The notes beneath the pieces were generated by a model. The model made no database searches, was not told where the DNA came from, and saw nothing but the letters and a program-made list of their open reading frames with translations. Positions 409 to 19,656 of a DNA stretch of 32,000 nt are shown here, piece by piece. Each line of letters opens with the position of its first letter. Positions within the stretch are counted from its first letter, which is position 1. The DNA is from Microcystis aeruginosa NIES-843 (lineage in GTDB: Bacteria; Cyanobacteriota; Cyanobacteriia; Cyanobacteriales; Microcystaceae). The stretch covers positions 930,001 to 962,000 of the forward strand of contig NC_010296.1 of NCBI RefSeq assembly GCF_000010625.1. The letters run 5' to 3'. The position numbers and the translations under genes were made by a program.

Positions 409-513
409 TGATCGTCTTATACTGAACTCAGGTCATGGACAGATAGTCAATCCTTGAATAGCAGGAGGCACAAAGTGGACATAGTAAATTCAATACATCT
501 CCAGATTAGGAAA

Positions 514-3290: not shown

Positions 3291-4508
3291 AGAACTCTTG
3301 CAAATTAATTATATGTTATAATGATGGGTTAACTAATTTTCCCCAAAAAATTAGTTAATCAGTACATTCGTCCTGAATGAAAACTTGAAGTTTAACTTTT
3401 AACTCAAAACTCTTTAGAGCTGCTTTAATTTGGTTATCAAAACCTCTTTATTTAAGCGGCACAAACTATCTCAATTTTTATAATTGAGAATAAATTCTCC
3501 TTGACTTGATTAATCTTTAGGCAACTTTTAAGAAGCTGCTATACCTATCCCTAACTCACAGTTATAAATAGCCGCCAACAAGTTAACTCTTAAACTATAT
3601 CTTCGACGACGATTCCGATATTTACAGGATAAGATTTTAAAGATTTTGAGTTTCCTATTTATATGTTCAATGATAATCCTTTCTTTAGCTAAAGCCTTGT
3701 TATACTCTTTTTCTAACTCTGTTAATTTTCTATTTTTCGATTTCTTTTTCGGTGTATAACTATTACTATGGTATGCAGCTATTCCCTGATAACCACTGTC
3801 TTCTATGCTGGTAGTTAAAGGATGAAAACGAACTCGACTTTTTTTAAATAAACTAAAATCATGACCTCTACCTTTCCCACAGAAGACACAGATAATTTCC
3901 TCTGTATTTTGATCAGCTACTAATTGGGATTTTAAAGTATGATAACCTCTTTTACCCGAAAAAAAATCTTTCTGTTTCTTTTGGGGGCGTTCAATGGGAG
4001 TTTCCGTTACATCCATTACCGTTATGACCGGTATCTCTGCTTGATTGAGTAAAGCTTTTTTTCCTTTTAAACGGAAGTTTCCCGATTGTAAAAGCATTTT
4101 TTCCGTCTTATTTACAATCCGACATATAGTTGATTCTGATAGTTCCCAGCTTGTACCAATGTGAAAATATGTTCTATATTCTCGCCAATATTCTAACGTT
4201 ACTAAAACTTGTTCTTCTATAGATAGTTTAGGTTTCGGTCCCCTTTTAGATGGTGAATTAGAGTCGGCTTCAACACTTTTTACTGATTCTACCATCTTTC
4301 TATATGTTTGTTTGTACACACCGAAACGGCGTTTGAATTGTTCATCTGATAAGTTTTGATAATCCATAATTTTGCTAATAAACATAGCAAAATTATAGAT
4401 GATTTCCTGACCTAAGATCACATTTTATTCTTTTTTCCACTTCAATCTAAGAATTGAGAAAAAAGCAAAACCTTATATTATACCATAAAAAAATTATGCA
4501 AGAGGTCT
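3291..4508 (-). mobile_element. insertion sequence, ~1.2 kb, single DDE transposase (IS5 / Harbinger-like type)
   Basis: Imperfect terminal inverted repeats: AGAACTCTTGCA at 3291-3302 versus the reverse complement of TGCAAGAGGTCT at 4497-4508 (11/12 match). With these ends, ATT flanks both sides (3288-3290 and 4509-4511), a possible 3-bp target duplication. The element encloses the transposase ORF. Confidence 0.65.
3528..4367 (-). CDS. DDE transposase (HTH plus DDE_Tnp_4-like, IS5 superfamily)
   Basis: MDYQNLSDEQFKRRFGVYKQTYRKMVESV...LSIEEQVLVTLEYWREYRTYFHIG...MDVTETPIERP...FFSGKRGYHTLKSQ...GRGHDFSLFK...IEDSGYQGI...ERIIIEHINRKLKIFKIL is the typical layout of this transposase type. The start is set at ATG 4367; the ORF track extends to 4421. 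Confidence 0.85.
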   Translation of the reverse strand: MDYQNLSDEQFKRRFGVYKQTYRKMVESVKSVEADSNSPSKRGPKPKLSIEEQVLVTLEYWREYRTYFHIGTSWELSESTICRIVNKTEKMLLQSGNFRLKGKKALLNQAEIPVITVMDVTETPIERPQKKQKDFFSGKRGYHTLKSQLVADQNTEEIICVFCGKGRGHDFSLFKKSRVRFHPLTTSIEDSGYQGIAAYHSNSYTPKKKSKNRKLTELEKEYNKALAKERIIIEHINRKLKIFKILSCKYRNRRRRYSLRVNLLAAIYNCELGIGIAAS

Positions 4509-5246: not shown

Positions 5247-6113
5247 CCCCTAGTGCGGCTTTCTTATCTGGAGTCGGTGGAAACGTGGAACACAAATGTT
5301 ATGGGGACTATTCACGTTTTAGAGGCCCTGAAAAGCCTGACTCATCCCTGTGCCGCCGTGTTTATTACTAGCGATAAGTGCTATGAGAATCGGGAATGGG
5401 TCTATGGTTATCGGGAAAATGACCCCTTGGGGGGTTACGATCCCTATAGTTCTAGCAAAGCGGGGGCGGAATTGGCGATCGCATCTTGGCGAAATTCCTT
5501 CTTTAAAACCCCTCAAACCCCCATCGGTATTGCCAGCGCTAGGGCCGGAAATGTCATTGGTGGGGGAGATTGGTCCCTAGACCGGATTGTACCCGATGCG
5601 ATGCGGGCCTTGATCAAATCCGAACCGATTCCGGTGCGGAACCCTCTAGCGACTCGTCCTTGGCAGCACGTTTTAGAGCCTTTAGGGGGCTATTTACGTT
5701 TAGCTGAGTCGATTTATGAGCAGTTGATGACAGCCAATTGGCAGCAAGACAGCCGGGGGTTATATGGGGCGTTTAATTTCGGTCCGTCTCTGACTTCTAA
5801 TCGTCCGGTTAAAGAGTTAGTTGAGTCTATCCTACAACTTTGGCCAGGGACTTGGCTCGATCAAAGTGATCCGAAGGCTGTTCATGAGGCTAAATTGCTT
5901 AATCTAGTCACAGATAAGGCTTTCCATACCCTAAAATGGCAACCCGTCTGGGATTTTCGGCAAACCCTCAAGGAAACGGTGACATGGTATTATCAAGCTA
6001 ATCAAATTGCACCTAGCAATAATCAAGGGTTTCAAAACTTAACCCGATCACAAATCGATCTATACCAAGCCGATGTCTTCAGTGAAAAAGTAGGTAGCTT
6101 TTGTGTTCCATAA
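4968..6113 (+). CDS. rfbG: CDP-glucose 4,6-dehydratase
   Basis: The N-terminus KKVFITGHTGFKGSWLGFWLLHLGAEVKGLSL is the characteristic Rossmann start of RfbG/DdhB. YSSSK (YxxxK) is present. 381 aa. Its start overlaps the rfbF-type stop, as in known rfbF-rfbG pairs. Confidence 0.9.
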   Translation: MENMVKKAFWPGKKVFITGHTGFKGSWLGFWLLHLGAEVKGLSLAPNTTPALFEQLDLAQNLSHHIGDIREAELVTRLIASWQPDVVFHLAAQPLVRLSYLESVETWNTNVMGTIHVLEALKSLTHPCAAVFITSDKCYENREWVYGYRENDPLGGYDPYSSSKAGAELAIASWRNSFFKTPQTPIGIASARAGNVIGGGDWSLDRIVPDAMRALIKSEPIPVRNPLATRPWQHVLEPLGGYLRLAESIYEQLMTANWQQDSRGLYGAFNFGPSLTSNRPVKELVESILQLWPGTWLDQSDPKAVHEAKLLNLVTDKAFHTLKWQPVWDFRQTLKETVTWYYQANQIAPSNNQGFQNLTRSQIDLYQADVFSEKVGSFCVP

Positions 6114-6187
6114 TATTTATTGCTACATTCCGGCGTTCCCCAAAACCAGAGACTTCGTACATCACCATTAGGATAAATTCTACAAAT

Positions 6188-7234
6188 ATGACCAAAGTTT
6201 ACTTCTACGCAACAAGTGAAAAGGAGATGCGGTTACTTAATAGACAAGATCCCGACTCTTTCCTCGGTATTCATGATCATTTTTCAGGGGAAATTGCGAC
6301 GAGTTATATCTATCTTAAAAAGGCGGGTTTAGATTGTGAAGTTATTAACACAATTCCTGAGGAAGGAATTGTGTTCGCAGATAAAAAGAGTTTTGATAAA
6401 ACCTTGCTAGAGATCAAAAAATATCTTGGCCGACCTACCCGTTTTTACAAATATCCAGGAGGAAATGCTATGTTAATCGCAATGAAATCTGATTTCCAGT
6501 TTTATCCACCTGCTCATATAAATATTGTTCATAATGCCGTGGATTTCCAGAAAAACCGTAATTCTATTTGGAATCCTTACTATATTATTTCTCCTTGGCC
6601 TCAGCCTGGATTGATCCCTCGATTGAAAGAGCGTGGCTGTCTGGTTGAAAATGTGGCTTATCTTGGTGATCAATCTCAATTAGCAGAAGAACTGAAATCA
6701 GATAAATGGCGTGATGCCTTATCTTCTCTAGGATGCAAGTGGTGGCCAATTCTTGAGCCTAAAAAGTGGAACGACTATAGTAATATAGATGTGGTTATTG
6801 CTGCTAGAAGTTTCGATGGCAACCCATACATCAACAAACCCGCTAATAAATTAATCAATTGTTGGCGAACTGGTGTTCCAGCAATCATGACTCCAGAGTC
6901 CTCAATCTTGGCAGAAAAGAAAAGCGACTTAGACTTTCTTTTGGTTAATTCTCTGGACGAAGCTATCTCAGCAGTTAGTAAGTTAAAGAGTAGTCCCAAC
7001 CTTTATGCTAACATGGTCAGTAATGCCCAGGAAAGGGCTAAGGATTTTACTGTAGAAAAAGGTTGTGAAAGATTTATGAAATTTTTTGAGGAATTTGCGT
7101 TTCCTACCTATAATGAATGGATTAAATTAACGGAAAGTCAGAAAAAAACTCTTTTCTGGAGACGTTGTTCTAAATTGAGATTAGACAATTTTAAGGACAG
7201 AACAATTAATAGTTTTATCGAGCGGTTTTTCTAA
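6188..7234 (+). CDS. hypothetical protein inserted between rfbG and rfbH (possible glycosyltransferase-like)
   Basis: 349 aa from ATG 6188 ([13 protein letters not shown]...). The track ORF from 6101 overlaps the rfbG end and looks over-extended. C-terminal [16 protein letters not shown] faintly resembles GT-B C-terminal domains. No firm family. Confidence 0.5.
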
Positions 7235-7254
7235 CGAATATTATTGCACAAATC

Positions 7255-8601
7255 ATGACACAACCTATCCATCGTCCGACTGGTACATCTGAGCAAGAAC
7301 AAGACCTGCGATCGCAAGTCTTTCAAGCCGTACAAGAATACTACAAGCACAAATTTCAACCCCGGGCTTTTGTGGCGGGACAAACCTATATCCCAGCATC
7401 GGGTAAGGTATTTGATGAGCAAGAATTAGTCAAATTAGTGGATTCTTCCCTAGATTTCTGGTTAACGACGGGCAGATATGCGGCGGAATTTGAGGAACGT
7501 TTTGCCCAGTGGATGGCGGTAAAACATTGTTTATTAGTCAATTCCGGCTCTTCGGCCAATTTAGTGGCTTTAAGTGCCTTAACTTCCCCTAAACTAGGGG
7601 AAAAACAACTTAAACCGGGGGATGAAGTCATTACCGTCGCCGCAGGTTTCCCGACTACAGTTAATCCCATCTTTCAAAATCAGCTAATTCCCGTCTTTTT
7701 AGACGTTAAATTACCCGGTTATGACCTTGATATTGATCAAATGGAATCGGCCTTGTCAGAGAAGACTAAAGCGATTATGATCGCTCATACCCTGGGAAAT
7801 CCCTTTAATTTAGAAGCGGTGATGGCTTTTGCCGAAAAACATGACCTCTGGGTAGTTGAGGATAACTGTGACGCGGTGGGAAGTCTCTATAAAGGGCAAA
7901 AAACCGGCACCTTTGGGCATTTAGCAACGGTTAGCTTTTATCCTGCCCATCACATGACCATGGGAGAAGGGGGTGCGGTTTTAACCAGTGATACCCGCTT
8001 GAAAAAGATTGTCGAGTCATTCCGTGACTGGGGGAGAGATTGTTGGTGTCCTCCGGGGGTAGATAATACCTGTAATAAGCGCTTCGGTTGGCAGTTAGGA
8101 GATTTGCCCTTTGGCTATGACCATAAGTACACCTATTCTCATGTGGGTTATAACCTAAAGATGACCGATATGCAAGCCGCCGTCGGGGTAGCGCAACTGG
8201 ATAAATTGCCCGGATTTATCAAAAAGCGTCGGGAAAATTTCGACTTTTTGCATCAAAAGTTACAGGAGCTTCAAGATGTTTTAATTCTGCCTGAAGCCAG
8301 CCCGGATTCTGAACCGAGTTGGTTCGGGTTTCCGATTTTTGTTAAGGAAAATGCTCCTTTTAGCCGCAATGATTTAGTTAAGCATTTGGAGGAAAAGCGC
8401 ATCGGCACAAGGCTATTATTTGGGGGAAATTTACTGCGCCAGCCTCTTTATAAGGGGTTAAATTATCGAGTTGTTGGGGATTTAAGCAATGCCGATAAAA
8501 TCATGAGTAGTGTTTTTTGGCTGGGCATTTATCCCGGATTAACCGAGGAGATGTTAACCTATGTAGCGGCGACCATCAGAAAATTTTGTCATGGCCAATA
8601 A
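7255..8601 (+). CDS. rfbH: CDP-6-deoxy-L-threo-D-glycero-4-hexulose-3-dehydrase (E1), DegT/RfbH family
   Basis: DegT-type fold ([17 protein letters not shown]). [14 protein letters not shown] carries His where aminotransferases have the PLP lysine. Cys205, Cys263, Cys265 and Cys273 give exactly C-X57-C-X1-C-X7-C, the unusual [2Fe-2S] motif described for E1. 448 aa. Confidence 0.9.
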
Positions 8602-11196: not shown

Positions 11197-13344
11197 ATGT
11201 ATCAAATGAATAAAACTGCGATTGATCAATGGTTCAAAGGAGTAGGGGCGTTCCTACTTATTATTATTGATGTAGATTATCTTCTTACCACAAGATTTGG
11301 CAGATTGAAAGGAAATGAAAGGTATGAAGCAATGTGGTATCTATTCGTTTTAATTTCTATTATTGTCTTACCTACTATTTTTGGTAAAGTTTTGAACTAT
11401 TTTAGTTCTATTTTATCAAAAATAATCAATAATTGGCAAGTGACAAATCAAAGTCGTAATCTTGAGTTTTTAATTTCGTGGGGACTTGGTCTTGTTTTCA
11501 ACACGATAGCAATTCAAAAGCTCTTTACCCAAGGAACTGCTGAAAGTCTCAGATTATTATATGTGGAACCTGAGATGTCATACAATTACGATAAACTGAC
11601 AACTTATTTATCAAGCTTGAATTTTTTGGTGCTAATTCCAGCCGCATTAATTTTAACAGTTATTTTATTTTTTCTCTTATACTTATTTTCCCTTCGTAAA
11701 TTTTTGAGAACATTATTGATTGAGAATATAGTTTTTATTGGCGTTTTAGTAACGGTGACATCAGTTGCTTGGAGTCTGGTTTATACTAATCCATCGAACT
11801 TCCATTTTAATGTGGTTCTCTTTCCATTGGCGGCCATTAATAGTGATTCCCCTTTTATTCCCCTTGTTGATGATGGGTTTAAAAGTTTATATGGCGGATA
11901 TTATCTTTGGCTTGGCCTACTATCACGATTAATGGGAAATAATCTATTGTCTATCAAAATTGTTGTATGTAGTTTGATTGCTCTTCAGATTCTTCTTTAC
12001 TATTTAATAACTAAGGCTATCTACAAAAATCCGTTGCTCAGAATTTTGGTATTTATTAGCTGCCTGTTTTGGAGTTATCTTTATGGTAGGGTAGTACGCC
12101 AAGATTTATACTTTCAATATTTTCCTTTAAGAACTTTATTTCCTTGTCTTTTGCTGGTTACTTTGTTGTATATATCTGAAAGAAAATTTCTCGATAAAGC
12201 TACTCTTTCCATTGGATTTTTAACAATTAACTTACAAGATGTGCTTCTAGATTTTATAGTGGCAATGGCTCTATTAAGTAATTTTGATTCTGGTGTAGTT
12301 GTCTTGATTATGTATTTCTTTATCTACATTTGGAATGAGTTTAAAATAGATGGGTTTAGCGCAAAAAACATGATTAAAAAATTAACGGTATTTAGTATAA
12401 ATCTTATCATGATCATTTTCATAATTATTTTTGGCTTTAGAATTATTGCTGGAGAATTTATAAATTTTTCCAATTATACGGGTTCTACTCTTAAATTTGG
12501 CTCTGGCTTTTATGGTTTGCCTTTTACAGATAATATATGGATGATATTTATGGTTGTTTACGGTTTTAACATCATACAATCTTTTCAGAGTCCTATCGAG
12601 GATAAAAGTGCTAAGTATCGTTTTGTAATTGCCATCTGGGGAATAGTTAGCCTCTTTTATTTTGTCAATAGAAGTCATCCTTGGAATTTGTTAGGTGTAT
12701 CACTTCCCTTCTTTCTTTCCTATGGTTGTTTGATTGATTATGCCTTTAGTTCTTATCGAAAAAAAATGTCTGAATCTGAACCAGAATTGATGCAGAATAA
12801 AATGACATTTAGGGAGTTTTTGCCAATCCTATTGCCCAATTCGTTTGATTTATTAAGACTCTCCCTGGTCAGTGTATTAGTCATGCCCTTTATTATTATG
12901 TCCCTAATCGCTTGTGTAAAATTTATTCCCTTAACGATATCCCATTTTCAAAGCCCTAAAAGCTATTCGCAAATGTCTGCTTTAGCGAGCTTGTCTGAGA
13001 GAGTGGCTACATTAGAAAAGCAATTAAACCGTCCATCAATTCTAATTTCTGATCGGGTTGAATCCTATTATTATCTTCACAAAAACAGAAAAGTATTGTT
13101 TTATCCCGAGATAGCTTCTATTTTCCCTGGGGACAATTCTTTTCAGCCCCGTTTTCTTGATACTCTCAATAAATTCAATCCAATTGTCACCCTATGTCCC
13201 ATGAGACATCCAGGTCTCATAAAAGCAAATTATCATGGCACTTTTTTACAATTACTCTATGAGAATAATTACAAACTTGTAGAGTCAGGGAAAAACATAG
13301 ATGACCGTATCCTGAAAAATTGTAAGATTTACATAAAAGATTAG
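11197..13344 (+). CDS. large polytopic membrane protein, unknown function (candidate GT-C-type glycosyltransferase)
   Basis: 715-aa ORF preceded by AGAGGA. At least a dozen hydrophobic segments. A DVD triplet follows the first TM (LLIIIDVDYLL). Very AT-rich: for example, the 60-nt line at 12361 has 13 G+C, versus 26 in the line at 7561. It lies directly downstream of a GtrB-like gene. The family assignment is inference only. Confidence 0.55.
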   Translation: MYQMNKTAIDQWFKGVGAFLLIIIDVDYLLTTRFGRLKGNERYEAMWYLFVLISIIVLPTIFGKVLNYFSSILSKIINNWQVTNQSRNLEFLISWGLGLVFNTIAIQKLFTQGTAESLRLLYVEPEMSYNYDKLTTYLSSLNFLVLIPAALILTVILFFLLYLFSLRKFLRTLLIENIVFIGVLVTVTSVAWSLVYTNPSNFHFNVVLFPLAAINSDSPFIPLVDDGFKSLYGGYYLWLGLLSRLMGNNLLSIKIVVCSLIALQILLYYLITKAIYKNPLLRILVFISCLFWSYLYGRVVRQDLYFQYFPLRTLFPCLLLVTLLYISERKFLDKATLSIGFLTINLQDVLLDFIVAMALLSNFDSGVVVLIMYFFIYIWNEFKIDGFSAKNMIKKLTVFSINLIMIIFIIIFGFRIIAGEFINFSNYTGSTLKFGSGFYGLPFTDNIWMIFMVVYGFNIIQSFQSPIEDKSAKYRFVIAIWGIVSLFYFVNRSHPWNLLGVSLPFFLSYGCLIDYAFSSYRKKMSESEPELMQNKMTFREFLPILLPNSFDLLRLSLVSVLVMPFIIMSLIACVKFIPLTISHFQSPKSYSQMSALASLSERVATLEKQLNRPSILISDRVESYYYLHKNRKVLFYPEIASIFPGDNSFQPRFLDTLNKFNPIVTLCPMRHPGLIKANYHGTFLQLLYENNYKLVESGKNIDDRILKNCKIYIKD

Positions 13345-13385: not shown

Positions 13386-13436
13386 CTAAAACGAGCCGAG
13401 CGCTTGGCAACACAATTGCGATCGCAATTGTGTTGA
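13386..13436 (+). pseudogene. stump of a Uma2-type C-terminal tail (...KRAERLATQLRSQLC*)
   Basis: CGAGCCGAGCGCTTGGCA matches the alpha-tail coding sequence CGAGCCGAACGCTTGGCA of the downstream paralogs at 17/18 bases. No gene body lies upstream. Confidence 0.45.
13408..13435. repeat. perfect 28-bp palindrome centred on HIP1
   Basis: CAACACAATTGCGATCGCAATTGTGTTG equals its own reverse complement. It sits at the left edge of the Uma2 array. Confidence 0.95.
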
Positions 13437-13492
13437 CATTAATGATAGTTTATGATAAGAAAGTGGCATCAGTTGTTCACCCCAACCAACCA

Positions 13493-14233
13493 ATGGCTCA
13501 AGAAACCCTCCTAATTGCAGCTAACCCACTGGGGATCAAGCTACCACCGACCCAAGATGAACTACCTTCTGATGATGGTATTCCCATGGAAACCCAGCGA
13601 CACGGACTGCAAATGCAGTTATTAGTCAGACCTCTCTCCCAGTGGTTAAAAACCCAAGGACGGGAAGCGTTTGTCGGAGGCAATATGTTTGTTTACTTTA
13701 GCCCCAATCAAGTGCGTAACGAGGATTATCGCGGGCCTGATGTATTTGTCGTTGTGGACGTGCCTCGAAAAGAACGGAAAAGCTGGGTCGTCTGGGAAGA
13801 AGAAAAAGCTCCTGATGTGGTGATTGAGTTGCTCTCTGAGAGTACAGCCAAAAAAGATAAAGAAGAGAAAAAGCTTATCTATCAGAATCGTTTGCGGGTG
13901 ACAGAATACTTTTGGTATGATCCCTTTGACCCAGAAGATTTAGCGGGACATCGCTTAGAAGGGGGTGTTTATAAATCTTTAAAACCAGATGCTCAAGGCA
14001 GGTTCAGCAGCGAAATATTAGGGCTAGTGTTAGTGCGGTGGCAGGGAATTTATGGGGATGAACAAGAGCCGATTACTTGGCTGCGTTGGGCAACAGCAGA
14101 GGGGCAATTGCTCCCCACCATAGAGGAGTTGGCCGAGCAGGAAAAGCAACGGGCTGAACAGGAAAAGCAACGGGCTGAACGCTTGGCAGCAAAATTAAGA
14201 GCGCTAGGAGTTGAAGTTGATGATAGTGTATGA
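13493..14233 (+). CDS. Uma2 (DUF820) family putative endonuclease, divergent member G1
   Basis: LPSDDGIPMETQRH...GGNMFVYF...RGPDVFVVVDVP...APDVVIELLSEST...K...EYFWYDP is the typical Uma2 PD-(D/E)xK layout. The tail is EQEKQRA x2 plus RLAAKLRALGVEVDDSV. ATG 13493 is preferred over the TTG at 13430, which lies inside the palindrome. Confidence 0.8.
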   Translation: MAQETLLIAANPLGIKLPPTQDELPSDDGIPMETQRHGLQMQLLVRPLSQWLKTQGREAFVGGNMFVYFSPNQVRNEDYRGPDVFVVVDVPRKERKSWVVWEEEKAPDVVIELLSESTAKKDKEEKKLIYQNRLRVTEYFWYDPFDPEDLAGHRLEGGVYKSLKPDAQGRFSSEILGLVLVRWQGIYGDEQEPITWLRWATAEGQLLPTIEELAEQEKQRAEQEKQRAERLAAKLRALGVEVDDSV

Positions 14234-14247
14234 ACTAATTGCAGGCA

Positions 14248-14275
14248 TTGTCCACCTAGATGTCTATTTTATAAT
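14248..14275 (+). promoter_or_regulatory. candidate sigma70-type promoter in long spacer (copy 1)
   Basis: TTGTCC (14248-14253), 16-nt spacer, TATAAT (14270-14275), about 75 nt upstream of the G2 ATG. The same elements recur in the two other long spacers. Confidence 0.4.
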
Positions 14276-14348
14276 TAATTTAATGCACCTACTTAGTTGC
14301 GGGCAGTTTATGAGAGCTTATTAAATATAGGAAGGACTGTTTACGACA

Positions 14349-15077
14349 ATGACACCATCTGCTATTAATTTGTTCAAAAAATCACCGCCAATCACCTGGG
14401 AAAAACTGCCAGATGATTTTATTCTACCTGACGAACCTGTGGACAACAACTTGCAACCCCTATTAGCAGCAGCTTTACGGGAATCCCTAGAATTAGCAGG
14501 ACTAATTCTAGAATCGATGCTAATTGCCTCTAATTTTGGCTTGTGTGCTACCGTTAAAACTCAAACTGTTGTCAAAGCACCTGATTGGGTTTATATTCCC
14601 TCAGTAAAACCCATTGCTAGTGGAGAAATTCGGCGCAGTTATACTCCCCATCTTGAAGGAGAAATTCCTACCATCGTCCTAGAGTTTATCTCGGAAACCG
14701 AAGGGGGTGAATATTCCATCAACCCTCACTATCCCTATGGAAAATGGTATTTTTATGAGCAAATCTTACAAGTACCTGTCTATGGAATTTTTCAGCCAAA
14801 AACTGGAGAATTAGATGTTTATTGTTTAGTTGCAGGAAAGTATGAGCAGCAGTTGCCAGATGAGAATAATCGTTACTGGATAAAAGAACTTAACTTGTTT
14901 ATCGGTATCTGGCAGGGAACCAAAGCTGAATTTACTACTAATTGGTTGCGCTGGTGGGATAAGTCGGGAAATTTGCTATTATGGGGGAGTGAGTTAGTAG
15001 AGCAAGAAAGGCAACGAGCCGAACGCTTGGCAGCAAAATTAAGAGCGCTAGGAGTTGAAGTTGATGATAGTGTATGA
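14349..15077 (+). CDS. Uma2-family paralog G2 (N-term A, core X, 1 heptad, tail alpha)
   Basis: ITWEKLPDDFILPDEP...KAPDWVYIPSV...IRRSYTPHLEGEIPTIVLEFISETEGGEY...GKWYFYEQILQVPVYGIFQP...WLRWWDKSGNLLLWGSE is the cyanobacterial Uma2-subfamily pattern. 242 aa. Confidence 0.8.
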   Translation: MTPSAINLFKKSPPITWEKLPDDFILPDEPVDNNLQPLLAAALRESLELAGLILESMLIASNFGLCATVKTQTVVKAPDWVYIPSVKPIASGEIRRSYTPHLEGEIPTIVLEFISETEGGEYSINPHYPYGKWYFYEQILQVPVYGIFQPKTGELDVYCLVAGKYEQQLPDENNRYWIKELNLFIGIWQGTKAEFTTNWLRWWDKSGNLLLWGSELVEQERQRAERLAAKLRALGVEVDDSV

Positions 15078-15091
15078 ACTAATTGCAGGCA

Positions 15092-15119
15092 TTGTCCACC
15101 TAGATGTCTATTTTATAAT
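15092..15119 (+). promoter_or_regulatory. candidate sigma70-type promoter in long spacer (copy 2)
   Basis: TTGTCC (15092-15097), 16-nt spacer, TATAAT (15114-15119). Confidence 0.4.
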
Positions 15120-15193
15120 TAATTTAATGCACCTACTTAGTTGCGGGCAGTTTATGAGAGCTTATTAAATATTAGGAAGGACTGTTTACGACA

Positions 15194-16045
15194 ATGACAC
15201 CATCTGCTATTGATTTACCGACAAAATCAACGATAATCACCTGGGAAAAACTGCCCGATGATTTTATTCTACCTGACGAACCTGTGGACAACAACTTGCA
15301 ACCCCTATTAGCAGCAGCTTTACGAGAATCTCTAGAATTAGCAGGACTAATTCTAGAATCGATGCTAATTGCCTCTAATTTTGGCTTGTGTGCTACCGTT
15401 AAAACTCAAACTGTTGTCAAAGCACCTGATTGGGTTTATATTCCCTCAGTAAAACCGATTGCTAGTGGAGAAATTCGGCGCAGTTACACTCCCCACCTCC
15501 AAGGAGAAATTCCTACCATCGTCCTAGAGTTTATCTCGGAAACCGAAGGGGGTGAGTATTCCATCAATCCTCACTATCCCTATGGAAAATGGTATTTTTA
15601 CGAGCAAATCTTACAAGTACCTGTCTATGGAATATTTCAGCCAAAAACCGGAGAATTAGAAATTTATTGTTTAGTGGCAGGAAAGTATGAGCAGCAGTTG
15701 CCAGATGAGAATAATCGTTACTGGATAAAAGAACTTAACTTGTTTATCGGTATCTGGCAAGGAACCAAAGCTGAATTTACTACTAATTGGTTGCGCTGGT
15801 GGGATAAGTCGGGAAATTTGCTATTATGGGGGAGTGAGTTAGTAGAGCAGGAAAAGCAACGAGCCGAGCAAGAGCGTCAACGAGCCGAACAGGAAAAGCA
15901 ACGAGCCGAGCAAGAGCGGCAACGAACCGAGCAAGAGCGTCAACGAGCCGAACAAGCTGAGTTAGAACTTGAGCAAGAACGAATTTCTCGCCAACGTTTG
16001 GTGCAAAAGTTAAAAGAGTTGGGAGTTAATCCTGAAAATCTATAG
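15194..16045 (+). CDS. Uma2-family paralog G3 (N-term A, core X, 5 heptads, tail beta)
   Basis: Core is near-identical to G2. The tail is EQEKQRA EQERQRA EQEKQRA EQERQRT EQERQRA followed by AELELEQERISRQRLVQKLKELGVNPENL. 283 aa. Confidence 0.8.
   Translation: MTPSAIDLPTKSTIITWEKLPDDFILPDEPVDNNLQPLLAAALRESLELAGLILESMLIASNFGLCATVKTQTVVKAPDWVYIPSVKPIASGEIRRSYTPHLQGEIPTIVLEFISETEGGEYSINPHYPYGKWYFYEQILQVPVYGIFQPKTGELEIYCLVAGKYEQQLPDENNRYWIKELNLFIGIWQGTKAEFTTNWLRWWDKSGNLLLWGSELVEQEKQRAEQERQRAEQEKQRAEQERQRTEQERQRAEQAELELEQERISRQRLVQKLKELGVNPENL
15845..15949 (+). repeat. five tandem 21-bp coding repeats (EQE[KR]QR[AT] heptads)
   Basis: GAGCAGGAAAAGCAACGAGCC and GAGCAAGAGCGTCAACGAGCC units alternate. 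Copy number differs among paralogs: 14135-14176 x2, 15000-15020 x1, 16731-16793 x3, 17618-17659 x2, none in G6. Confidence 0.9.
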
Positions 16046-16079
16046 CCCATTTTAGATATTTGAATTAGTGAAATTACTT

Positions 16080-16850
16080 ATGACAGCCATGCAACTACTT
16101 CAGTCAAACCCCTTACCAACTATTACCTGGGAAAAACTGCCAGATGATTTTATTCTACCTGACGAACCTGTGGACAACAACCTGCAACCCCTATTAGCAG
16201 CCGCTTTACGAGAATCGTTAGAATTAGCAGGACTAATTCTGGAATCGATGCTAATTGCCTCTAATTTTGGCTTGTGTGCTACCGTTAAAACTCAAACAGT
16301 TGTCAAAGCACCTGATTGGGTTTATATTCCCTCGGTAAAACCGATTCCTAGCGGAAAAATTCGGCGCAGTTATACTCCCCATCTTGAAGGAGAAATTCCT
16401 ACCATCGTCCTAGAGTTTATCTCGGAAACCGAAGGGGGTGAGTATTCCATCAATCCTCACTATCCCTATGGAAAATGGTATTTTTACGAGCAAATCTTAC
16501 AAGTACCTGTCTATGGAATATTTCAGCCAAAAACCGGAGAATTAGAAATTTATTGTTTAGTGGCAGGAAAGTATGAGCAGCAGTTGCCAGATGAGAATAA
16601 TCGTTACTGGATAAAAGAACTTAACTTGTTTATCGGTATCTGGCAAGGAACCAAAGCTGAATTTACTACTAATTGGTTGCGCTGGTGGGATAAGTCGGGA
16701 AATTTGCTATTATGGGGGAGTGAGTTAGTAGAGCAGGAAAAGCAACGAGCCGAGCAAGAGCGTCAACGAGCCGAACAGGAAAAGCAACGAGCCGAACGCT
16801 TGGCAGCAAAATTAAGAGCGCTAGGAGTTGAAGTTGATGATAGTGTATGA
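16080..16850 (+). CDS. Uma2-family paralog G4 (N-term B, core X, 3 heptads, tail alpha)
   Basis: MTAMQLLQSNPLPTITWEKLP... followed by the shared core. The track ORF starts at GTG 16068; ATG 16080 is used here and the start is uncertain. Only 34 nt separate it from the G3 stop. Confidence 0.75.
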   Translation: MTAMQLLQSNPLPTITWEKLPDDFILPDEPVDNNLQPLLAAALRESLELAGLILESMLIASNFGLCATVKTQTVVKAPDWVYIPSVKPIPSGKIRRSYTPHLEGEIPTIVLEFISETEGGEYSINPHYPYGKWYFYEQILQVPVYGIFQPKTGELEIYCLVAGKYEQQLPDENNRYWIKELNLFIGIWQGTKAEFTTNWLRWWDKSGNLLLWGSELVEQEKQRAEQERQRAEQEKQRAERLAAKLRALGVEVDDSV

Positions 16851-16864
16851 ACTAATTGCAGGCA

Positions 16865-16892
16865 TTGTCCACCTACAGGTCTATTTTATAAT
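16865..16892 (+). promoter_or_regulatory. candidate sigma70-type promoter in long spacer (copy 3)
   Basis: TTGTCC (16865-16870), 16-nt spacer, TATAAT (16887-16892). Confidence 0.4.
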
Positions 16893-16966
16893 TAATTTAA
16901 TGCACCTACTTAGTTGCGGGCAGTTTATGAGAGCTTATTAAATATTAGGAAGGACTGTTGACGACA

Positions 16967-17755
16967 ATGACACCATCTGCTATTGATTTACCAACAAAAT
17001 CAACGATAATCACCTGGGAAAAACTGCCCGATGATTTTATTCTACCTGACGAACCTGTGGACAATAACCTGCAACCCCTATTAGCAGCCGCTTTACGGGA
17101 ATCCCTAGAATTAGCAGGACTAATTCTAGAATCGATGCTAATTGCTTCTAATTTTGGCTTATGTGCTACCGTTAAAACTCAAACTGTTGTCAAAGCACCT
17201 GATTGGGTTTATATTCCCTCGGTAAAACCGATTCCTGGCGGAAAAATTCGGCGCAGTTATACTCCCCATCTTGAAGGAGAAATTCCTACCATCGTCCTAG
17301 AGTTTATCTCGGAAACCGAAGGGGGTGAATATTCCATCAATCCTCACTATCCCTATGGAAAATGGTATTTTTACGAGCAAATCTTACAAGTACCTATCTA
17401 TGGAATATTTCAGCCAAAAACCGGAGAATTAGAAATTTATCGATTGAATCAAGGAAGATATGAACAACAAAAACCTAATGAAAACAATCGTTATTGGATA
17501 GCAGAGATTAACTTATTTTTGGGAGTCTGGCAGGGAAAAAAAGCGGAAGTAACAGCCTATTGGTTACGTTGGTGGGATAAGTCGGGCAATCTGTTATTAT
17601 GGGGGAGTGAGTTAGTAGAGCAAGAAAGGCAACGAGCCGAGCAGGAGCGTCAACGGGCCGAACAAGCTGAGTTAGAACTTGAGCAAGAACAAATTGCTCG
17701 CCAACGTTTGGTGCAAAAGTTAAAAGAGTTGGGAGTTAATCCTGAAAATCTATAG
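16967..17755 (+). CDS. Uma2-family paralog G5 (N-term A, core Y, 2 heptads, tail beta)
   Basis: Shares the G3 N-terminus and beta tail but carries the YRLNQGRYEQQKPNENNRYWIAEINLFLGVWQGKKAEVTAYW patch. ATG 16967 is homologous to the G2 and G3 starts; the track uses TTG 16958. Confidence 0.8.
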   Translation: MTPSAIDLPTKSTIITWEKLPDDFILPDEPVDNNLQPLLAAALRESLELAGLILESMLIASNFGLCATVKTQTVVKAPDWVYIPSVKPIPGGKIRRSYTPHLEGEIPTIVLEFISETEGGEYSINPHYPYGKWYFYEQILQVPIYGIFQPKTGELEIYRLNQGRYEQQKPNENNRYWIAEINLFLGVWQGKKAEVTAYWLRWWDKSGNLLLWGSELVEQERQRAEQERQRAEQAELELEQEQIARQRLVQKLKELGVNPENL

Positions 17756-17789
17756 CCCATTTTAGATATTTGAATTAGTGAAATTACTT

Positions 17790-18536
17790 ATGACAGCCAT
17801 GCAACTACTTCAGTCAAACCCCTTACCAACTATTACCTGGGAAAAACTGCCAGATGATTTTATTCTACCTGACGAACCTGTGGACAACAACTTGCAACCC
17901 CTATTAGCAGCCGCTTTACGAGAATCGTTAGAATTAGCAGGACTAATTCTGGAATCGATGCTAATTGCCTCTAATTTTGGCTTGTGTGCTACCGTTAAAA
18001 CTCAAACAGTTGTCAAAGCACCTGATTGGGTTTATATTCCCTCGGTAAAACCGATTCCTGGCGGAAAAATTCGGCGCAGTTATACTCCCCATCTTGAAGG
18101 AGAAATTCCTACCATCGTCCTAGAGTTTATCTCGGAAACCGAAGGGGGTGAATATTCCATCAATCCTCACTATCCCTATGGAAAATGGTATTTTTACGAG
18201 CAAATCTTACAAGTACCTATCTATGGAATATTTCAGCCAAAAACCGGAGAATTAGAAATTTATCGATTGAATCAAGGAAGATATGAACAACAAAAACCTG
18301 ATGAAAACAATCGTTATTGGATAGCAGAGATTAACTTATTTTTGGGAGTCTGGCAGGGAAAAAAAGCGGAAGTAACAGCCTATTGGTTGCGCTGGTGGGA
18401 TAAGTCGGGCAATCTGTTATTATGGGGGAGTGAACGAGTCGCACAAACTGAATATCAACTCGAACAGGAGCGAATGTTACGGCACAAATTAGCTGAAAAA
18501 TTAAGAGAAATAGGCGTTGAACCAGAAACCTTGTAG
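17790..18536 (+). CDS. Uma2-family paralog G6 (N-term B, core Y, 0 heptads, tail gamma)
   Basis: Shares the G4 N-terminus and the G5 core. It has a unique tail, RVAQTEYQLEQERMLRHKLAEKLREIGVEPETL. Start uncertain, as for G4. Confidence 0.75.
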   Translation: MTAMQLLQSNPLPTITWEKLPDDFILPDEPVDNNLQPLLAAALRESLELAGLILESMLIASNFGLCATVKTQTVVKAPDWVYIPSVKPIPGGKIRRSYTPHLEGEIPTIVLEFISETEGGEYSINPHYPYGKWYFYEQILQVPIYGIFQPKTGELEIYRLNQGRYEQQKPDENNRYWIAEINLFLGVWQGKKAEVTAYWLRWWDKSGNLLLWGSERVAQTEYQLEQERMLRHKLAEKLREIGVEPETL

Positions 18537-18595
18537 GAGACTTGTCAAATGCTGATAAAATCATGGAAGGAATCTTGGTAATGATTCGGGGCTGA
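18536..18595 (+). pseudogene. C-terminal stump of a DegT/RfbH-like gene
   Basis: Encodes [19 protein letters not shown]. The first 10 residues are identical to rfb[11 protein letters not shown] (about 8473-8502), and the six codons that differ are all synonymous (GGG/GGA, GAT/GAC, TTA/TTG, AGC/TCA, GCC/GCT...). The stop at 18593-18595 lies 2 nt before the SDR ATG, like an old operon junction. Confidence 0.55.
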
Positions 18596-18597
18596 AG

Positions 18598-19656
18598 ATG
18601 CAACCTAACCTAACAAATGACTTAAATCACATTCTTGCCCATACTAAAACCCTGTGGGAGGAATTGCGGGGACAACGGATATTTATTACCGGAGGTACAG
18701 GCTTTTTTGGCTGTTGGTTATTAGAAAGTTTTATTTGGGCTAATGATCAGCTAGACTTAAAAGCATCGGCAGTGGTTTTAACCAGAAATCCTGATAGTTT
18801 CAGGCAAAAAGCTCCTCATTTAGCCAATCATCCCGCTATTCAATTCCCTAGCGGTGATGTTAGGTCATTTCAGTTTCCTAAAGGGGAGTTTTCTTATATT
18901 ATTCATGCGGCAACGGATGCAAGTTCTCTAGTACATCAAGAGGATCGTCTTTTTGTCCTAGATACTACAGTACAAGGGACTCGGCGAGTGCTAGATTTTG
19001 CTAAAAATTGTGGCACAAAAAAATTATTACTAACTAGCTCAGGAGCAATTTATGGTCAACAACCCTCAGATATAAGTCATATTCCGGAAAGTTATCAAGG
19101 GGCGCCGGATGTGAGTTCTCCTAACTCCGTTTATGGAGAGGGAAAACGACTCGCAGAACTCTTGAGTGTCTTGTATGCTCAGGAGTATAATATAGAGGTA
19201 AAAATCGCCAGGTGTTTTGCCTTTGTCGGTCCCTATTTACCTTTAGATGGATCTTTTGCCATTGGCAACTTTATCAAGGACAGTTTAGAGGGAAAAACGA
19301 TTCATATTAAAGGAGATGGAACCCCCTATCGTTCCTATTTATATGCTTCGGATTTGATGATTTGGTTATGGACTATATTATTTAAGGGTGAGTCTTGTCG
19401 TCCTTATAATGTGGGTTCAAATGTGGAAATCAACATCAAAGATACCGCCTTAGCAGTGGCGGAAATTGCTGGACACCCTAATTCTATCACTGTTGCTCAA
19501 GAACCAGTTGTAGGTCAACGGATTGCCAGATATGTACCCGCTACTGACAGAGCATTAAAAGAATTAGGACTCAAGGCAACCGTTGATTTATCTACAGGGA
19601 TTAAAAAAACCCTTGCATGGTATCAACAAAGACTAACACAAACTGATAATCATTGA
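18598..19656 (+). CDS. NAD-dependent epimerase/dehydratase-family SDR
   Basis: RIFITGGTGFFGCWLLE (GxxGxxG) and YGEGKR (YxxxK). 352 aa. Confidence 0.8.
   Translation: MQPNLTNDLNHILAHTKTLWEELRGQRIFITGGTGFFGCWLLESFIWANDQLDLKASAVVLTRNPDSFRQKAPHLANHPAIQFPSGDVRSFQFPKGEFSYIIHAATDASSLVHQEDRLFVLDTTVQGTRRVLDFAKNCGTKKLLLTSSGAIYGQQPSDISHIPESYQGAPDVSSPNSVYGEGKRLAELLSVLYAQEYNIEVKIARCFAFVGPYLPLDGSFAIGNFIKDSLEGKTIHIKGDGTPYRSYLYASDLMIWLWTILFKGESCRPYNVGSNVEINIKDTALAVAEIAGHPNSITVAQEPVVGQRIARYVPATDRALKELGLKATVDLSTGIKKTLAWYQQRLTQTDNH

What the first reader, a model, noticed from the sequence alone, without database searches (positions are those of the whole stretch)
13386..18597. Head-to-tail array of six Uma2/DUF820 nuclease-family genes built from shuffled modules
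Six complete Uma2 (PD-(D/E)xK-type putative restriction endonuclease) genes lie consecutively on the + strand, inside a surface-glycan island. G1 is divergent. G2-G6 are near-identical over most of the core, but each is a different combination of a few discrete modules.

The modules are:
- N-terminus: A (MTPSAI[ND]L...; G2, G3, G5) or B (MTAMQLLQSNPLPT; G4, G6).
- A short site: PIASGE (G2, G3), PIPSGK (G4) or PIPGGK (G5, G6).
- Core patch: X (YCLVAGKYEQQLPDENNRYWIKELNLFIGIWQGTKAEFTTNW; G2-G4) or Y (YRLNQGRYEQQKP[ND]ENNRYWIAEINLFLGVWQGKKAEVTAYW; G5, G6).
- Copies of an EQE[KR]QRA heptad: 1, 5, 3, 2 and 0 in G2-G6.
- Tail: alpha (RLAAKLRALGVEVDDSV; G1, G2, G4), beta (AELELEQE.I.RQRLVQKLKELGVNPENL; G3, G5) or gamma (G6).

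No two genes share the same combination. That pattern fits ongoing unequal crossover and gene conversion generating a combinatorial paralog set, not a simple recent duplication.

To my knowledge Uma2 proteins have no experimentally defined role. A recombining array of nuclease-fold proteins with variable-length coiled-coil tails, placed next to phage-receptor-type glycan genes, is a plausible uncharacterised defence or hetero-oligomeric nuclease system. That functional idea is inference.
Basis: partly seen in the sequence, partly recalled or inferred. Interest (0 to 1): 0.78.

Follow-up and report, generated by a model that had tools for sequence, protein, structure and literature searches.

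The report
Recombining Uma2 nuclease-gene array in Microcystis
Six tandem genes for an uncharacterised nuclease-fold family sit inside a Microcystis surface-sugar gene cluster and are reshuffled by recombination among themselves; this is a well-documented example of a gene cassette type known since 2005, and its function remains unknown.

Summary
Six intact + strand Uma2 (PF05685) genes lie at 13430-18536, plus a seventh 3' relic at 13389-13455. The organism is Microcystis.

G2-G6 form a true nucleotide mosaic (PHI p<=0.0005; at least 4 recombination events in 603 nt). The syntenic locus holds 1 to 7 copies in other Microcystis genomes, so it is not invariant.

Three corrections apply:
- Each tail travels with the following spacer and the next gene's N-terminus as one block.
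- The X/Y core patch is two ancient haplotypes (synonymous sites saturated), not local diversification. Hybrids occur in other strains.
- The EQE[KR]QRA repeat has no hydrophobic seam. It reads as a charged single helix whose length scales with repeat number, not a classical coiled coil.

All copies keep the PD-EXX-K residues and are under strong purifying selection (omega 0.05-0.2).

A defence or hetero-oligomer role is unsupported. G2-G6 match no PADLOC model, no partner genes or viral relatives were found, and related genera carry single copies. Cassettes of paralogous COG4636 genes were described in 2005 and 2009.

One new lead: this Uma2 subfamily lies beside polysaccharide genes in several cyanobacterial lineages.

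The parts
13389..13455 (+). Degenerate, frameshifted 3' relic of a seventh Uma2 gene (alpha-variant tail ending ...DSL*). It lies directly after the membrane-protein gene and carries a HIP1 site at 13418-13425.
   Evidence: It aligns to the tail of the second Uma2 gene of locus L002. Pattern search gave 4 matches against 0 expected. The same relic precedes the G1 orthologues in L002, L080 and L082.
13430..14233 (+). G1, a Uma2 gene of a different subfamily (31-38% identical to G2-G6). Likely true start is ATG 13442. PD-EXX-K residues are D100, E129 and K144, and the helix-1 His is present. It has 2 heptads and an alpha tail.
   Evidence: (81 bits).
14349..15077 (+). G2: N-terminus A variant (INLFKKSPP), PIASGE, patch X, 1 heptad, alpha tail. 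Catalytic residues D79, E112, K132.
15194..16045 (+). G3: N-terminus A, PIASGE, patch X, 5 heptads, beta tail. The predicted C-terminal helix spans residues 213-275.
16068..16850 (+). G4 (probable ATG 16080): N-terminus B, PIPSGK, patch X, 3 heptads, alpha tail. It is a chimera. Its 5' half is nearly identical to G6 (dS 0.02) and its 3' half is G2/G3-like, with the breakpoint between about 16356 and 16509.
16958..17755 (+). G5 (probable ATG 16967): N-terminus A, PIPGGK, patch Y, 2 heptads, beta tail.
17778..18536 (+). G6 (probable ATG 17790): N-terminus B, PIPGGK, patch Y, 0 heptads, gamma tail. This is the conserved terminal copy. A gamma-tail gene lies directly before the epimerase in every Microcystis array whose 3' end was read, except NIES-4325 (L002), where the last gene has an alpha-variant tail.
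   Evidence: 98.7% identity to L085 across G6 and its downstream genes.
14177..14390 (+). Alpha-A junction block 1: alpha tail, 115-nt spacer and N-terminus A. Blocks 2 and 3 lie at 15021-15235 and 16794-17008 and are almost identical, including the copy that follows the divergent G1.
15950..16121 (+). Beta-B junction block 1: beta tail, 22-nt spacer and N-terminus B. Block 2 lies at 17660-17831 and is 99% identical over 300 nt.
14248..14275 (+). Promoter-like site TTGTCC-16-TATAAT in the alpha-A spacer, repeated at 15092-15119 and 16865-16892. The 22-nt beta-B spacer has none, so A-then-B pairs look bicistronic. This is a consensus match only.
15848..15956 (+). In-frame 21-nt (and 42-nt) tandem repeat encoding EQE[KR]QRA in G3. 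Shorter tracts lie at 14131-14180 (G1), 16737-16797 (G4) and about 17609-17660 (G5).
14820..14942 (+). Core patch, haplotype X, in G2. X also lies at 15665-15787 (G3) and 16551-16673 (G4). Haplotype Y lies at 17438-17560 (G5) and 18261-18383 (G6). The patch encodes the C-terminal beta-sheet subdomain (residues 159-198) that follows the nuclease core.
11197..13344 (+). Left flank: a 715-aa multi-pass membrane protein with low GC (0.32) and no family match, probably a glycan polymerase or transferase. It is the variable cassette bordered by Uma2 sequences.
18598..19656 (+). Right flank: NAD-dependent sugar epimerase/dehydratase. A Uma2 gene or fragment lies directly upstream of it in all 9 Microcystis loci retrieved by searching with this epimerase.

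Best explanation
**What it is.** This is a tandem cassette of paralogous Uma2/COG4636 genes in a Microcystis genome. It has one G1-type gene, five G2-type genes and one 3' relic. It sits between a variable glycan cassette and a conserved epimerase gene.

**How the mosaic arises.** The roughly 0.83-kb units recombine with one another.
- Unequal crossover inside the conserved cores changes copy number and creates chimeras. G4 is one: a G6-like 5' half joined to a G2-like 3' half.
- Gene conversion spreads tracts between copies. G3 carries a G2-like middle between G5-like ends.
- Exchange or slippage in the in-frame 21-nt repeat changes the heptad number.
- Crossovers fall inside cores, so each tail, its spacer and the next N-terminus are inherited as one junction block.
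- The X and Y patches are two old haplotypes that are reassorted, not newly diversified.

**What the genes encode.** The genes are kept functional. Each encodes a PD-EXX-K nuclease-fold core, a small C-terminal beta subdomain, and a rigid charged helix of variable length that ends in a short amphipathic helix.

**Inferred, not shown.**
- The proteins are Mg-dependent DNA nucleases.
- A-type genes have their own promoter, and B-type genes are co-transcribed with them.
- The family persists as a resident of flexible glycan islands (selfish or solo-toxin-like, as proposed in 2005 and 2009). It does not look like a dedicated multi-subunit defence machine.
For: **Array and family**
- establish the six ORFs and their Pfam matches.

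**Recombination**
- Blockwise incompatible partitions appear.
- PHI p<=0.0005 for the window genes and p<=0.002 for 24 copies.
- Rmin is 4 for the window and 29 for 24 copies.

**Junction blocks**
- Searches show them in the window.
- The same rule holds in all other arrays.

**Copy-number turnover (1-7 copies)**
- Complete genomes CP011339, CP020664, CP191407 and CP191408, plus other assemblies.
- Strain-specific substitutions shared by paralogues (both L077 genes) indicate conversion.

**Selection**
- Pre-patch omega is 0.05-0.13 with dS 0.12-0.18.
- In the patch, pS is 0.77-0.83 with dN 0.23-0.25.

**Active site**
- P78, D79, E112, S115 and K132 are invariant across 110 sequences of both subfamilies.
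- This matches the published motif.

**Structure**
- AlphaFold2 pLDDT is 85.7 and 86.2.
- The best PDB matches are the Uma2-type structures 6okh and 9y1l.
- The C-terminal helix is 35 residues with 3 heptads and 63 residues with 5.

**Prior descriptions of such cassettes**
-.
Against: - No biochemical activity is known for any Uma2 protein.
- G2-G6 have Asn where the family's conserved helix-1 His sits, so catalytic competence is not certain.
- No expression data exist for this array. The promoter calls are consensus matches only.
- The sequence tests cannot separate unequal crossover from gene conversion, nor date the events.
- A purely selfish role fits poorly with strong purifying selection, with single-copy orthologues in stable synteny, and with a 4-nt overlap with a glycosyltransferase gene in Crocosphaera.
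Confidence: 0.65

Rival explanations
1. One reading: an anti-phage defence array. The paralogues are a diversified set of restriction-like nucleases, and their variable patch and tail give different target specificities.
For: - The fold is a nuclease fold.
- G1 weakly matches the PADLOC candidate PDC-S03 at 1.8e-10.
- The locus is a strain-variable island next to likely phage-receptor glycan genes.
- In other lineages the neighbours include HepT-like, DUF29 and PDDEXK_10 genes.
- Uma2 genes sit inside type III-B cmr operons in M. aeruginosa FACHB-524.
Against: - G2-G6 match no PADLOC model.
- PDC-S03 is unvalidated and does not appear in the searched literature.
- No methyltransferase, sensor or other partner lies nearby.
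- Patch divergence is ancient with low pN/pS, and only two haplotypes recur across strains. That is not the pattern of an arms race.
- Many genomes have one copy.
- No phage relatives were found.
Confidence: 0.2
2. An obligate hetero-oligomeric nuclease. A-type and B-type (or X and Y) subunits pair through their tails, so two or more different paralogues are needed.
For: - A-beta genes are followed after 22 nt by B genes with no promoter-like site, which looks bicistronic.
- COG4636-COG4636 neighbour pairs are frequent: 114 in PMC2701414.
- The tail ends in an amphipathic helix.
Against: - A and B proteins differ only in their first 14 residues.
- Single-copy loci exist in Microcystis (L088, L001, L075) and in Aphanothece and Crocosphaera.
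- L077 has only X and L002 has only Y.
- No multimer prediction could be run.
Confidence: 0.1
3. A recombination-junction role. The repeated Uma2 genes, and perhaps breaks made by their own products, serve as the homology and break sites through which glycan cassettes are swapped, diversifying the cell surface.
For: - A Uma2 relic lies exactly at the right edge of the low-GC membrane-protein cassette.
- A full Uma2 gene lies on the other side of that cassette in L080 and L082.
- Synteny with other strains breaks at Uma2 genes.
- In L086 a 2.6-kb unit ending inside G1 is present in three tandem copies.
- All 9 Microcystis epimerase loci have Uma2 directly upstream.
- About a quarter of immediate neighbours of this subfamily in 79 metagenome loci are polysaccharide genes. 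GT4 lies directly upstream in six distinct lineages.
- Feder and Bujnicki proposed recombinogenic activity.
Against: - Flexible islands accumulate selfish genes anyway, so co-location does not show cause.
- No matched control was available for the neighbour census, and the sample is partly redundant (65 clusters from 92 neighbours).
- Nuclease activity and self-targeting are unproven.
Confidence: 0.15
4. Neutral junk: a recent amplification of decaying selfish genes with no maintained function.
For: - Relics and truncated copies exist: window 13389-13455, plus L081 and L074.
- Copy number is unstable.
Against: - All six window copies and 24 of the 26 G2-type copies typed in the eight loci compared are intact.
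- Omega is 0.05-0.2 at dS 0.12-0.35.
- The catalytic residues are invariant.
Confidence: 0.05

Closest known systems
Cassettes and tandem duplications of COG4636/Uma2 (DUF820) genes in cyanobacteria (Feder & Bujnicki 2005, PMC551604; Makarova, Wolf & Koonin 2009, PMC2701414)
   Same: Same protein family, same PD-EXX-K motif and same-strand paralogue runs. [quoted passage not shown] Function is still unknown. The family has been proposed as a selfish element or solo toxin.
   Different: - This array is longer (6-7 genes) and has been dissected at nucleotide level.
- Junction-block inheritance, two ancient haplotypes, and helix length varying with a 21-nt repeat had not been described.
- Copy number of 1-7 among strains and the position inside a glycan operon are also new. 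I found none of these in those papers.
Rpn (YhgA-like) recombination-promoting PD-(D/E)xK nucleases, which form arrays of 11, 3 and 3 genes in Thermosynechococcus TA-1 (PMC9403480)
   Same: Paralogous nuclease-fold genes that expand in tandem in cyanobacterial genomes and are linked to recombination.
   Different: This is a different Pfam family. No Rpn domain was found in the window genes. Recombination-promoting activity has been shown for E. coli Rpn proteins (my own knowledge of Kingston et al. 2017, not checked here) but not for Uma2.
Gene-conversion cassette systems for surface variation (Neisseria pilE/pilS, Borrelia vlsE; from my own knowledge)
   Same: Tandem homologous cassettes are reshuffled by gene conversion, giving combinatorial variants.
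   Different: Here every copy is a complete ORF with its own start codon, and several have promoter-like sites. The products are cytoplasmic nuclease-fold proteins. There is no single expression site with silent partial cassettes.
ER/K-type single alpha-helix spacers and in-frame tandem-repeat length polymorphism (from my own knowledge)
   Same: The E/Q/K/R-rich heptads have no hydrophobic seam and are predicted as one long, confident helix. Its length tracks repeat number.
   Different: This has not been shown experimentally. The repeat is Q-rich and its last 12 residues are amphipathic, so a short dimerising end cannot be excluded.
PADLOC candidate system PDC-S03
   Same: G1 matches three PDC-S03 profiles (E 1.8e-10 to 2.5e-8) over the nuclease core.
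   Different: The matches are partial. G2-G6 do not match. The candidate has no experimental support that I could find.

Membership tests
Uma2 / COG4636 / DUF820 (PF05685) | Profile match above Pfam's gathering score (27 bits) | tested here: met
   G1 scores 80.9 bits and G2-G6 score 39.9-44.2 bits.
Uma2 / COG4636 / DUF820 (PF05685) | PD-EXX-K active-site variant: Asp of PD, Glu in the next core strand, and Lys moved to the following helix (PMC551604) | tested here: met
   D79, E112 and K132 in G2-G6; D100, E129 and K144 in G1. P78, D79, E112, S115 and K132 are invariant in a 110-sequence alignment.
Uma2 / COG4636 / DUF820 (PF05685) | Conserved His in the first helix (H43 of all3650), present in most members | tested here: not met
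   G1 has it (ETQRHGLQ). G2-G6 have Asn at that position (VDNNLQ). Published lineages with Gln, Thr or Ser there are still counted in the family, so this is a subfamily trait and not an exclusion.
Uma2 / COG4636 / DUF820 (PF05685) | Fold like the solved Uma2-type structures | tested here: met
   The AlphaFold2 model has pLDDT 85.7. The top PDB matches are 6okh and 9y1l (E about 1e-4, probability 1.00, target TM 0.57-0.61). The next match, NucC, is not significant.
Uma2 / COG4636 / DUF820 (PF05685) | Nuclease activity | not testable with these tools
   No biochemical study was found for any member.
Restriction-modification system | Cognate DNA methyltransferase encoded next to the nuclease | tested here: not met
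   None of the 24 ORFs of at least 100 aa in the window has a DNA methyltransferase domain.
Known or candidate anti-phage defence systems (PADLOC-DB 2.0) | Match to a system's protein models together with its partner genes | tested here: not met
   Only G1 matches the single-gene candidate PDC-S03. G2-G6 have no hits. The neighbouring SMC gene's hits are generic ATPase-head matches to a housekeeping SMC that has a hinge domain.
Canonical coiled coil | Hydrophobic residues at heptad positions a and d | tested here: not met
   The heptad runs score 0.00 strong-hydrophobic a/d in the best register, against 0.80 for the GCN4 control. Only the last 12 or so residues are amphipathic.
Silent-cassette antigenic-variation system | One expression locus plus promoterless partial cassettes | tested here: not met
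   All six copies are full-length ORFs with start codons. Three promoter-like sites lie within the array.
Type II toxin-antitoxin pair | Small adjacent antitoxin gene | tested here: not met
   The spacers are 22 or 107-116 nt with no ORF. The only ORFs of at least 60 aa that overlap the array genes are two antisense reading frames with no family match.

The most novel reading that the evidence does not exclude
This Uma2 subfamily may be a built-in junction module of cyanobacterial surface-glycan islands. Its repeated genes would mark cassette borders, and its nucleases would make breaks at or near their own repeats. Those breaks would drive unequal crossover, gene conversion and cassette swapping, and so diversify the cell surface that phages and grazers see. 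The variable-length rigid helix would set the reach of the catalytic core from a tethered or dimerised end.
Probability: 0.1. Interest if true: 0.75.

Novelty: new member of a known kind. Interest (0 to 1): 0.4.

Why it matters
Uma2/COG4636 is one of the largest uncharacterised gene families in cyanobacteria. It makes up over 2% of Gloeobacter genes (PMC551604) and has had no assigned function for 20 years.

This locus is a clean natural example of how such cassettes evolve. It offers matched variants differing in patch haplotype, helix length and tail, ready for biochemical comparison.

It also explains a practical problem. Short-read Microcystis assemblies break inside these genes: several contigs end 500-650 nt upstream of the epimerase.

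The recurring placement of this subfamily beside polysaccharide genes is a testable lead. It links a nuclease-fold family to surface-glycan island plasticity in a bloom-forming toxic cyanobacterium.

Tried and rejected
- **Exact-sequence look-up of G2.** It found nothing. The organism was identified through the flanking epimerase instead.
- **NCBIfam.** No family for any Uma2 copy or for the unannotated flanks.
- **Rfam.** No RNA family in the window.
- **The 115-nt spacer.** It has no significant fold (z = +0.87), so a structured RNA there was rejected.
- **Terminators.** None on the + strand within the array.
- **PDB sequence search.**
  - Only weak matches to 9y1l and 6okh.
  - The ETV6 hits are chance matches to a WLRW-like stretch.
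- **Phage origin.** Rejected. There are no relatives in IMG/VR contigs and no significant BFVD fold match.
- **Diversifying selection on patch X/Y.** Rejected.
  - Synonymous sites are saturated.
  - The same two haplotypes recur across strains.
- **Assembly artefact.** Rejected. The same architecture occurs in four complete Microcystis chromosomes.
- **Uma2-epimerase adjacency outside Microcystis.** Absent in the 70 other loci.
- **Not done.**
  - No multimer prediction tool was available.

Full report
**1. The observation**

The window holds six consecutive + strand ORFs at 13430-14233 (G1), 14349-15077 (G2), 15194-16045 (G3), 16068-16850 (G4), 16958-17755 (G5) and 17778-18536 (G6). All six pass Pfam's gathering score for Uma2 PF05685: G1 at 81 bits and G2-G6 at 40-44 bits. 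G1 is only 31-38% identical to the others.

- N-terminus A in G2, G3, G5 and B in G4, G6.
- Short site PIASGE, PIPSGK or PIPGGK.
- Patch X in G2-G4 and Y in G5-G6.
- Heptad counts of 1, 5, 3, 2 and 0.
- Tails alpha, beta and gamma.

The flanks are a same-strand sugar operon:
- Upstream: sugar dehydratase, DegT aminotransferase, an RmlC-like epimerase, an epimerase, a GT2 and a 715-aa membrane protein.
- Downstream: an epimerase, a split transketolase, GtrA and a GT2, followed by the housekeeping SMC.

**2. The mosaic is real at nucleotide level**

In an alignment of G2-G6, variable sites fall in blocks that support incompatible groupings:
- {G2,G3,G5} versus {G4,G6} at the 5' end.
- {G2,G3} versus {G4,G5,G6} in the middle.
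- {G2,G3,G4} versus {G5,G6} in the patch.
- {G2,G4} versus {G3,G5} versus G6 in the tail.

A pairwise-homoplasy permutation test gives p<=0.0005 for the five window genes and p<=0.002 for 24 copies from eight loci. The four-gamete minimum number of recombination events in the 603-nt core is 4 for the window and 29 for the 24 copies.

**3.

*Tail and next N-terminus are linked.* An alpha tail is always followed by a 107-116-nt spacer and N-terminus A. A beta tail is always followed by a 22-nt spacer and N-terminus B.
- The three alpha-A blocks are almost identical, including the one that follows the divergent G1.
- The two beta-B blocks are 99% identical over 300 nt.
- The same rule holds in every other Microcystis array translated.
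- This is what crossovers inside the conserved cores would produce.

*The patch is not a discrete unit.* Other strains carry hybrids:
- Y then X in L080 (gene at 10001).
- X then Y in L081 (gene at 10001).

*X and Y are ancient.* The proportion of synonymous differences is 0.77-0.83, which is saturated, and dN is 0.23-0.25. Elsewhere in the core dS is 0.12-0.18 with omega 0.05-0.13. So the protein identity of the cores reflects purifying selection as well as homogenisation. The patch reflects reassortment of two old haplotypes, not local diversification.

*There is a seventh Uma2 fragment.* Window 13389-13455 is a frameshifted 3' relic of another Uma2 gene. The listed GTG start of G1 lies inside it.

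*The tail is not a classical coiled coil.* The EQE[KR]QRA runs have no hydrophobic residue at a/d in any register, against 0.8 for GCN4. AlphaFold2 predicts one confident helix. It spans residues 213-247 in G4 (3 heptads) and 213-275 in G3 (5 heptads). Only the last 12 or so residues are amphipathic.

**4. Organism and comparison with relatives**

The flanking epimerase is 94-97% identical to Microcystis proteins. The table shows what lies at the site immediately upstream of that epimerase in different genomes.

| Genome / locus | Arrangement |
|---|---|
| This window | G1 + 5 G2-type copies |
| M. panniformis FACHB-1757 (L080) | One copy upstream of the membrane-protein gene, then G1 + 5 |
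| Microcystis sp. MC19 (L084) | 6 copies |
| GCA_977017135 (L082) | At least 7; the contig ends inside the array |
| EAWAG127a (L085) | 3 copies |
| FBCC-A270 (L083) | 3 copies |
| L081 | 3 copies + 1 cut by an IS |
| FBCC-A1114 (L077) | 2 copies |
| NIES-4325 (L002) | 2 copies |
| TW10-like (L086/L087) | 2 copies |
| L088 | 1 copy |

- A gamma-tail gene is the last copy before the epimerase wherever the 3' end of the array was read, except in NIES-4325 (L002). There the last gene carries an alpha-variant tail.
- G6 and its downstream genes are 98.7% identical to L085.
- Paralogues in one genome share strain-specific substitutions. Both L077 genes carry PIPSGT, HIEGE, TEEGEY and QGSKAEF, which indicates conversion.

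A parsimonious history for the window (inference):
- The ancestor was G1-[A,X,alpha]-[A,Y,beta]-[B,Y,gamma].
- One unequal crossover joined a G6-like 5' half to a G2-like 3' half, with the breakpoint at about 16356-16509. This gave the chimera G4 and duplicated the block.
- A conversion tract of about 500 bp made G3 X-type.
- Repeat number then changed in the heptad tracts.

**5. What the proteins are**

- The published family signature is PD-EXX-K with the Lys moved to the next helix. It is intact in all six copies.
- P78, D79, E112, S115 and K132 are invariant across 110 sequences of both subfamilies.
- G2-G6 carry Asn where most members have a helix-1 His. G1 keeps the His.
- The model's best structural matches are the uncharacterised Uma2-type entries 6okh and 9y1l.
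- The X/Y patch maps to a C-terminal beta-sheet subdomain (residues 154-203) outside the catalytic core.
- I found no experimental study of any Uma2 protein.
- Uma2 genes in Microcystis are transcribed in blooms, but nothing is specific to this array.

**6. Function**

The defence idea has little direct support:
- Only G1 weakly matches an unvalidated PADLOC candidate.
- No methyltransferase or partner gene is nearby.
- No phage relatives were found.
- There is no sign of diversifying selection.

An obligate hetero-oligomer is unlikely, because single-copy loci exist and A and B differ only in 14 N-terminal residues. Pure junk is excluded by the selection data.

What remains is the older view of a self-propagating, possibly recombinogenic, solo nuclease family that forms paralogue cassettes.

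**7. A lead that goes beyond the finding**

Relatives of the G2-type subfamily sit next to polysaccharide genes in several lineages.

| Lineage / locus | Arrangement |
|---|---|
| Aphanothece (L089) | GT2-GtrA fusion, then Uma2 |
| Crocosphaera (L090) | GT2-GtrA fusion, then Uma2, with a 4-nt overlap |
| Pseudanabaena (L091/L092) | Wzz-kinase, Uma2, epimerase, MurJ, GT4, GT4 |
| Metagenome contig L093 | Wza, WecG, epimerase, Uma2, Uma2 |

A census of immediate neighbours gave further support:
- The census covered 92 immediate neighbours in 79 metagenome loci, of which 27 are Microcystis.
- About a quarter have glycan-pathway domains (Epimerase 7, GT4 7, Wzz 4, DegT 3).
- GT4 lies directly upstream in six distinct lineages.
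- All 9 Microcystis loci found through the epimerase have Uma2 directly upstream; none of the other 70 loci do.

In the window and in L080/L082, Uma2 sequences flank the low-GC membrane-protein cassette, and synteny with other strains breaks at Uma2 genes. I had no matched control for this census. Flexible islands also collect selfish genes, so this remains a hypothesis.

**8. Verdict**

- The recombination reading is supported and refined.
- The functional reading is unsupported.
- The kind of object, a cassette of paralogous COG4636 genes, has been known since 2005-2009. This is therefore a well-resolved new member of a known kind, with moderate interest.

Noticed in passing
window 13389-13455: A frameshifted relic of a Uma2 3' end, carrying a HIP1 site, lies between the membrane-protein gene and G1. 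It is conserved in L002, L080 and L082. It suggests that the membrane-protein cassette was inserted or replaced by recombination inside a Uma2 tail.
   Followed up: partly
L090 4805-6768; L089 4723-6789; L112, L120, L126, L160, L166, L170: Single-copy relatives of the G2-type gene lie directly after a GT2-GtrA fusion gene in Crocosphaera and Aphanothece, with a 4-nt overlap in Crocosphaera. They lie next to a GT4 glycosyltransferase in six other lineages. This may be a conserved link between the Uma2 subfamily and glycan genes.
   Followed up: partly
L086 1-6701: In a M. wesenbergii-like genome, a 2.6-kb unit is present in three tandem copies. The unit comprises the membrane-protein gene, the relic and the first third of G1, and its junction falls inside G1.
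   Followed up: partly
window 6101-7234: A 377-aa ORF with no Pfam, NCBIfam or PADLOC match lies between the sugar dehydratase and DegT. Homology to L080, L082 and L085 is interrupted from about 5998 to 7298, so it looks like a strain-specific insertion in the glycan operon.
   Followed up: no
window 3528-4421 (-), 454-1806 (+), 2103-3005 (-): An IS-type transposase (DDE_Tnp_4 with an HTH domain) and two ORFs with no family match lie at the upstream edge of the glycan locus.
   Followed up: no
window 11197-13344: A 715-aa multi-pass membrane protein has the lowest GC in the window (0.32) and no family match. It varies in length among strains (674-715 aa) and is probably a glycan polymerase or ligase-like enzyme.
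   Followed up: no
L003, L004, L005, L037 (first 500-650 nt): Several short-read Microcystis contigs end inside the Uma2 gene just upstream of the epimerase. The array is probably an assembly-breaking repeat, so copy numbers from draft genomes (for example NIES-4325, which also has an N-run and a duplicated block) may be underestimates.
   Followed up: partly
window, whole: The cyanobacterial HIP1 palindrome GCGATCGC occurs 6 times, against 0.22 expected by chance.
   Followed up: no
L095 2127-3887: One long ORF upstream of a Uma2 gene combines a PemK/MazF-like toxin domain with a DegT aminotransferase. It may be two adjacent genes read in frame by my crude ORF caller.
   Followed up: no
L093 4881-12612: A metagenome contig carries four Uma2 genes and a PDDEXK_10/DUF3782 gene interleaved downstream of Wza, WecG and an epimerase. 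This is another glycan-linked cluster of nuclease-fold genes.
   Followed up: no
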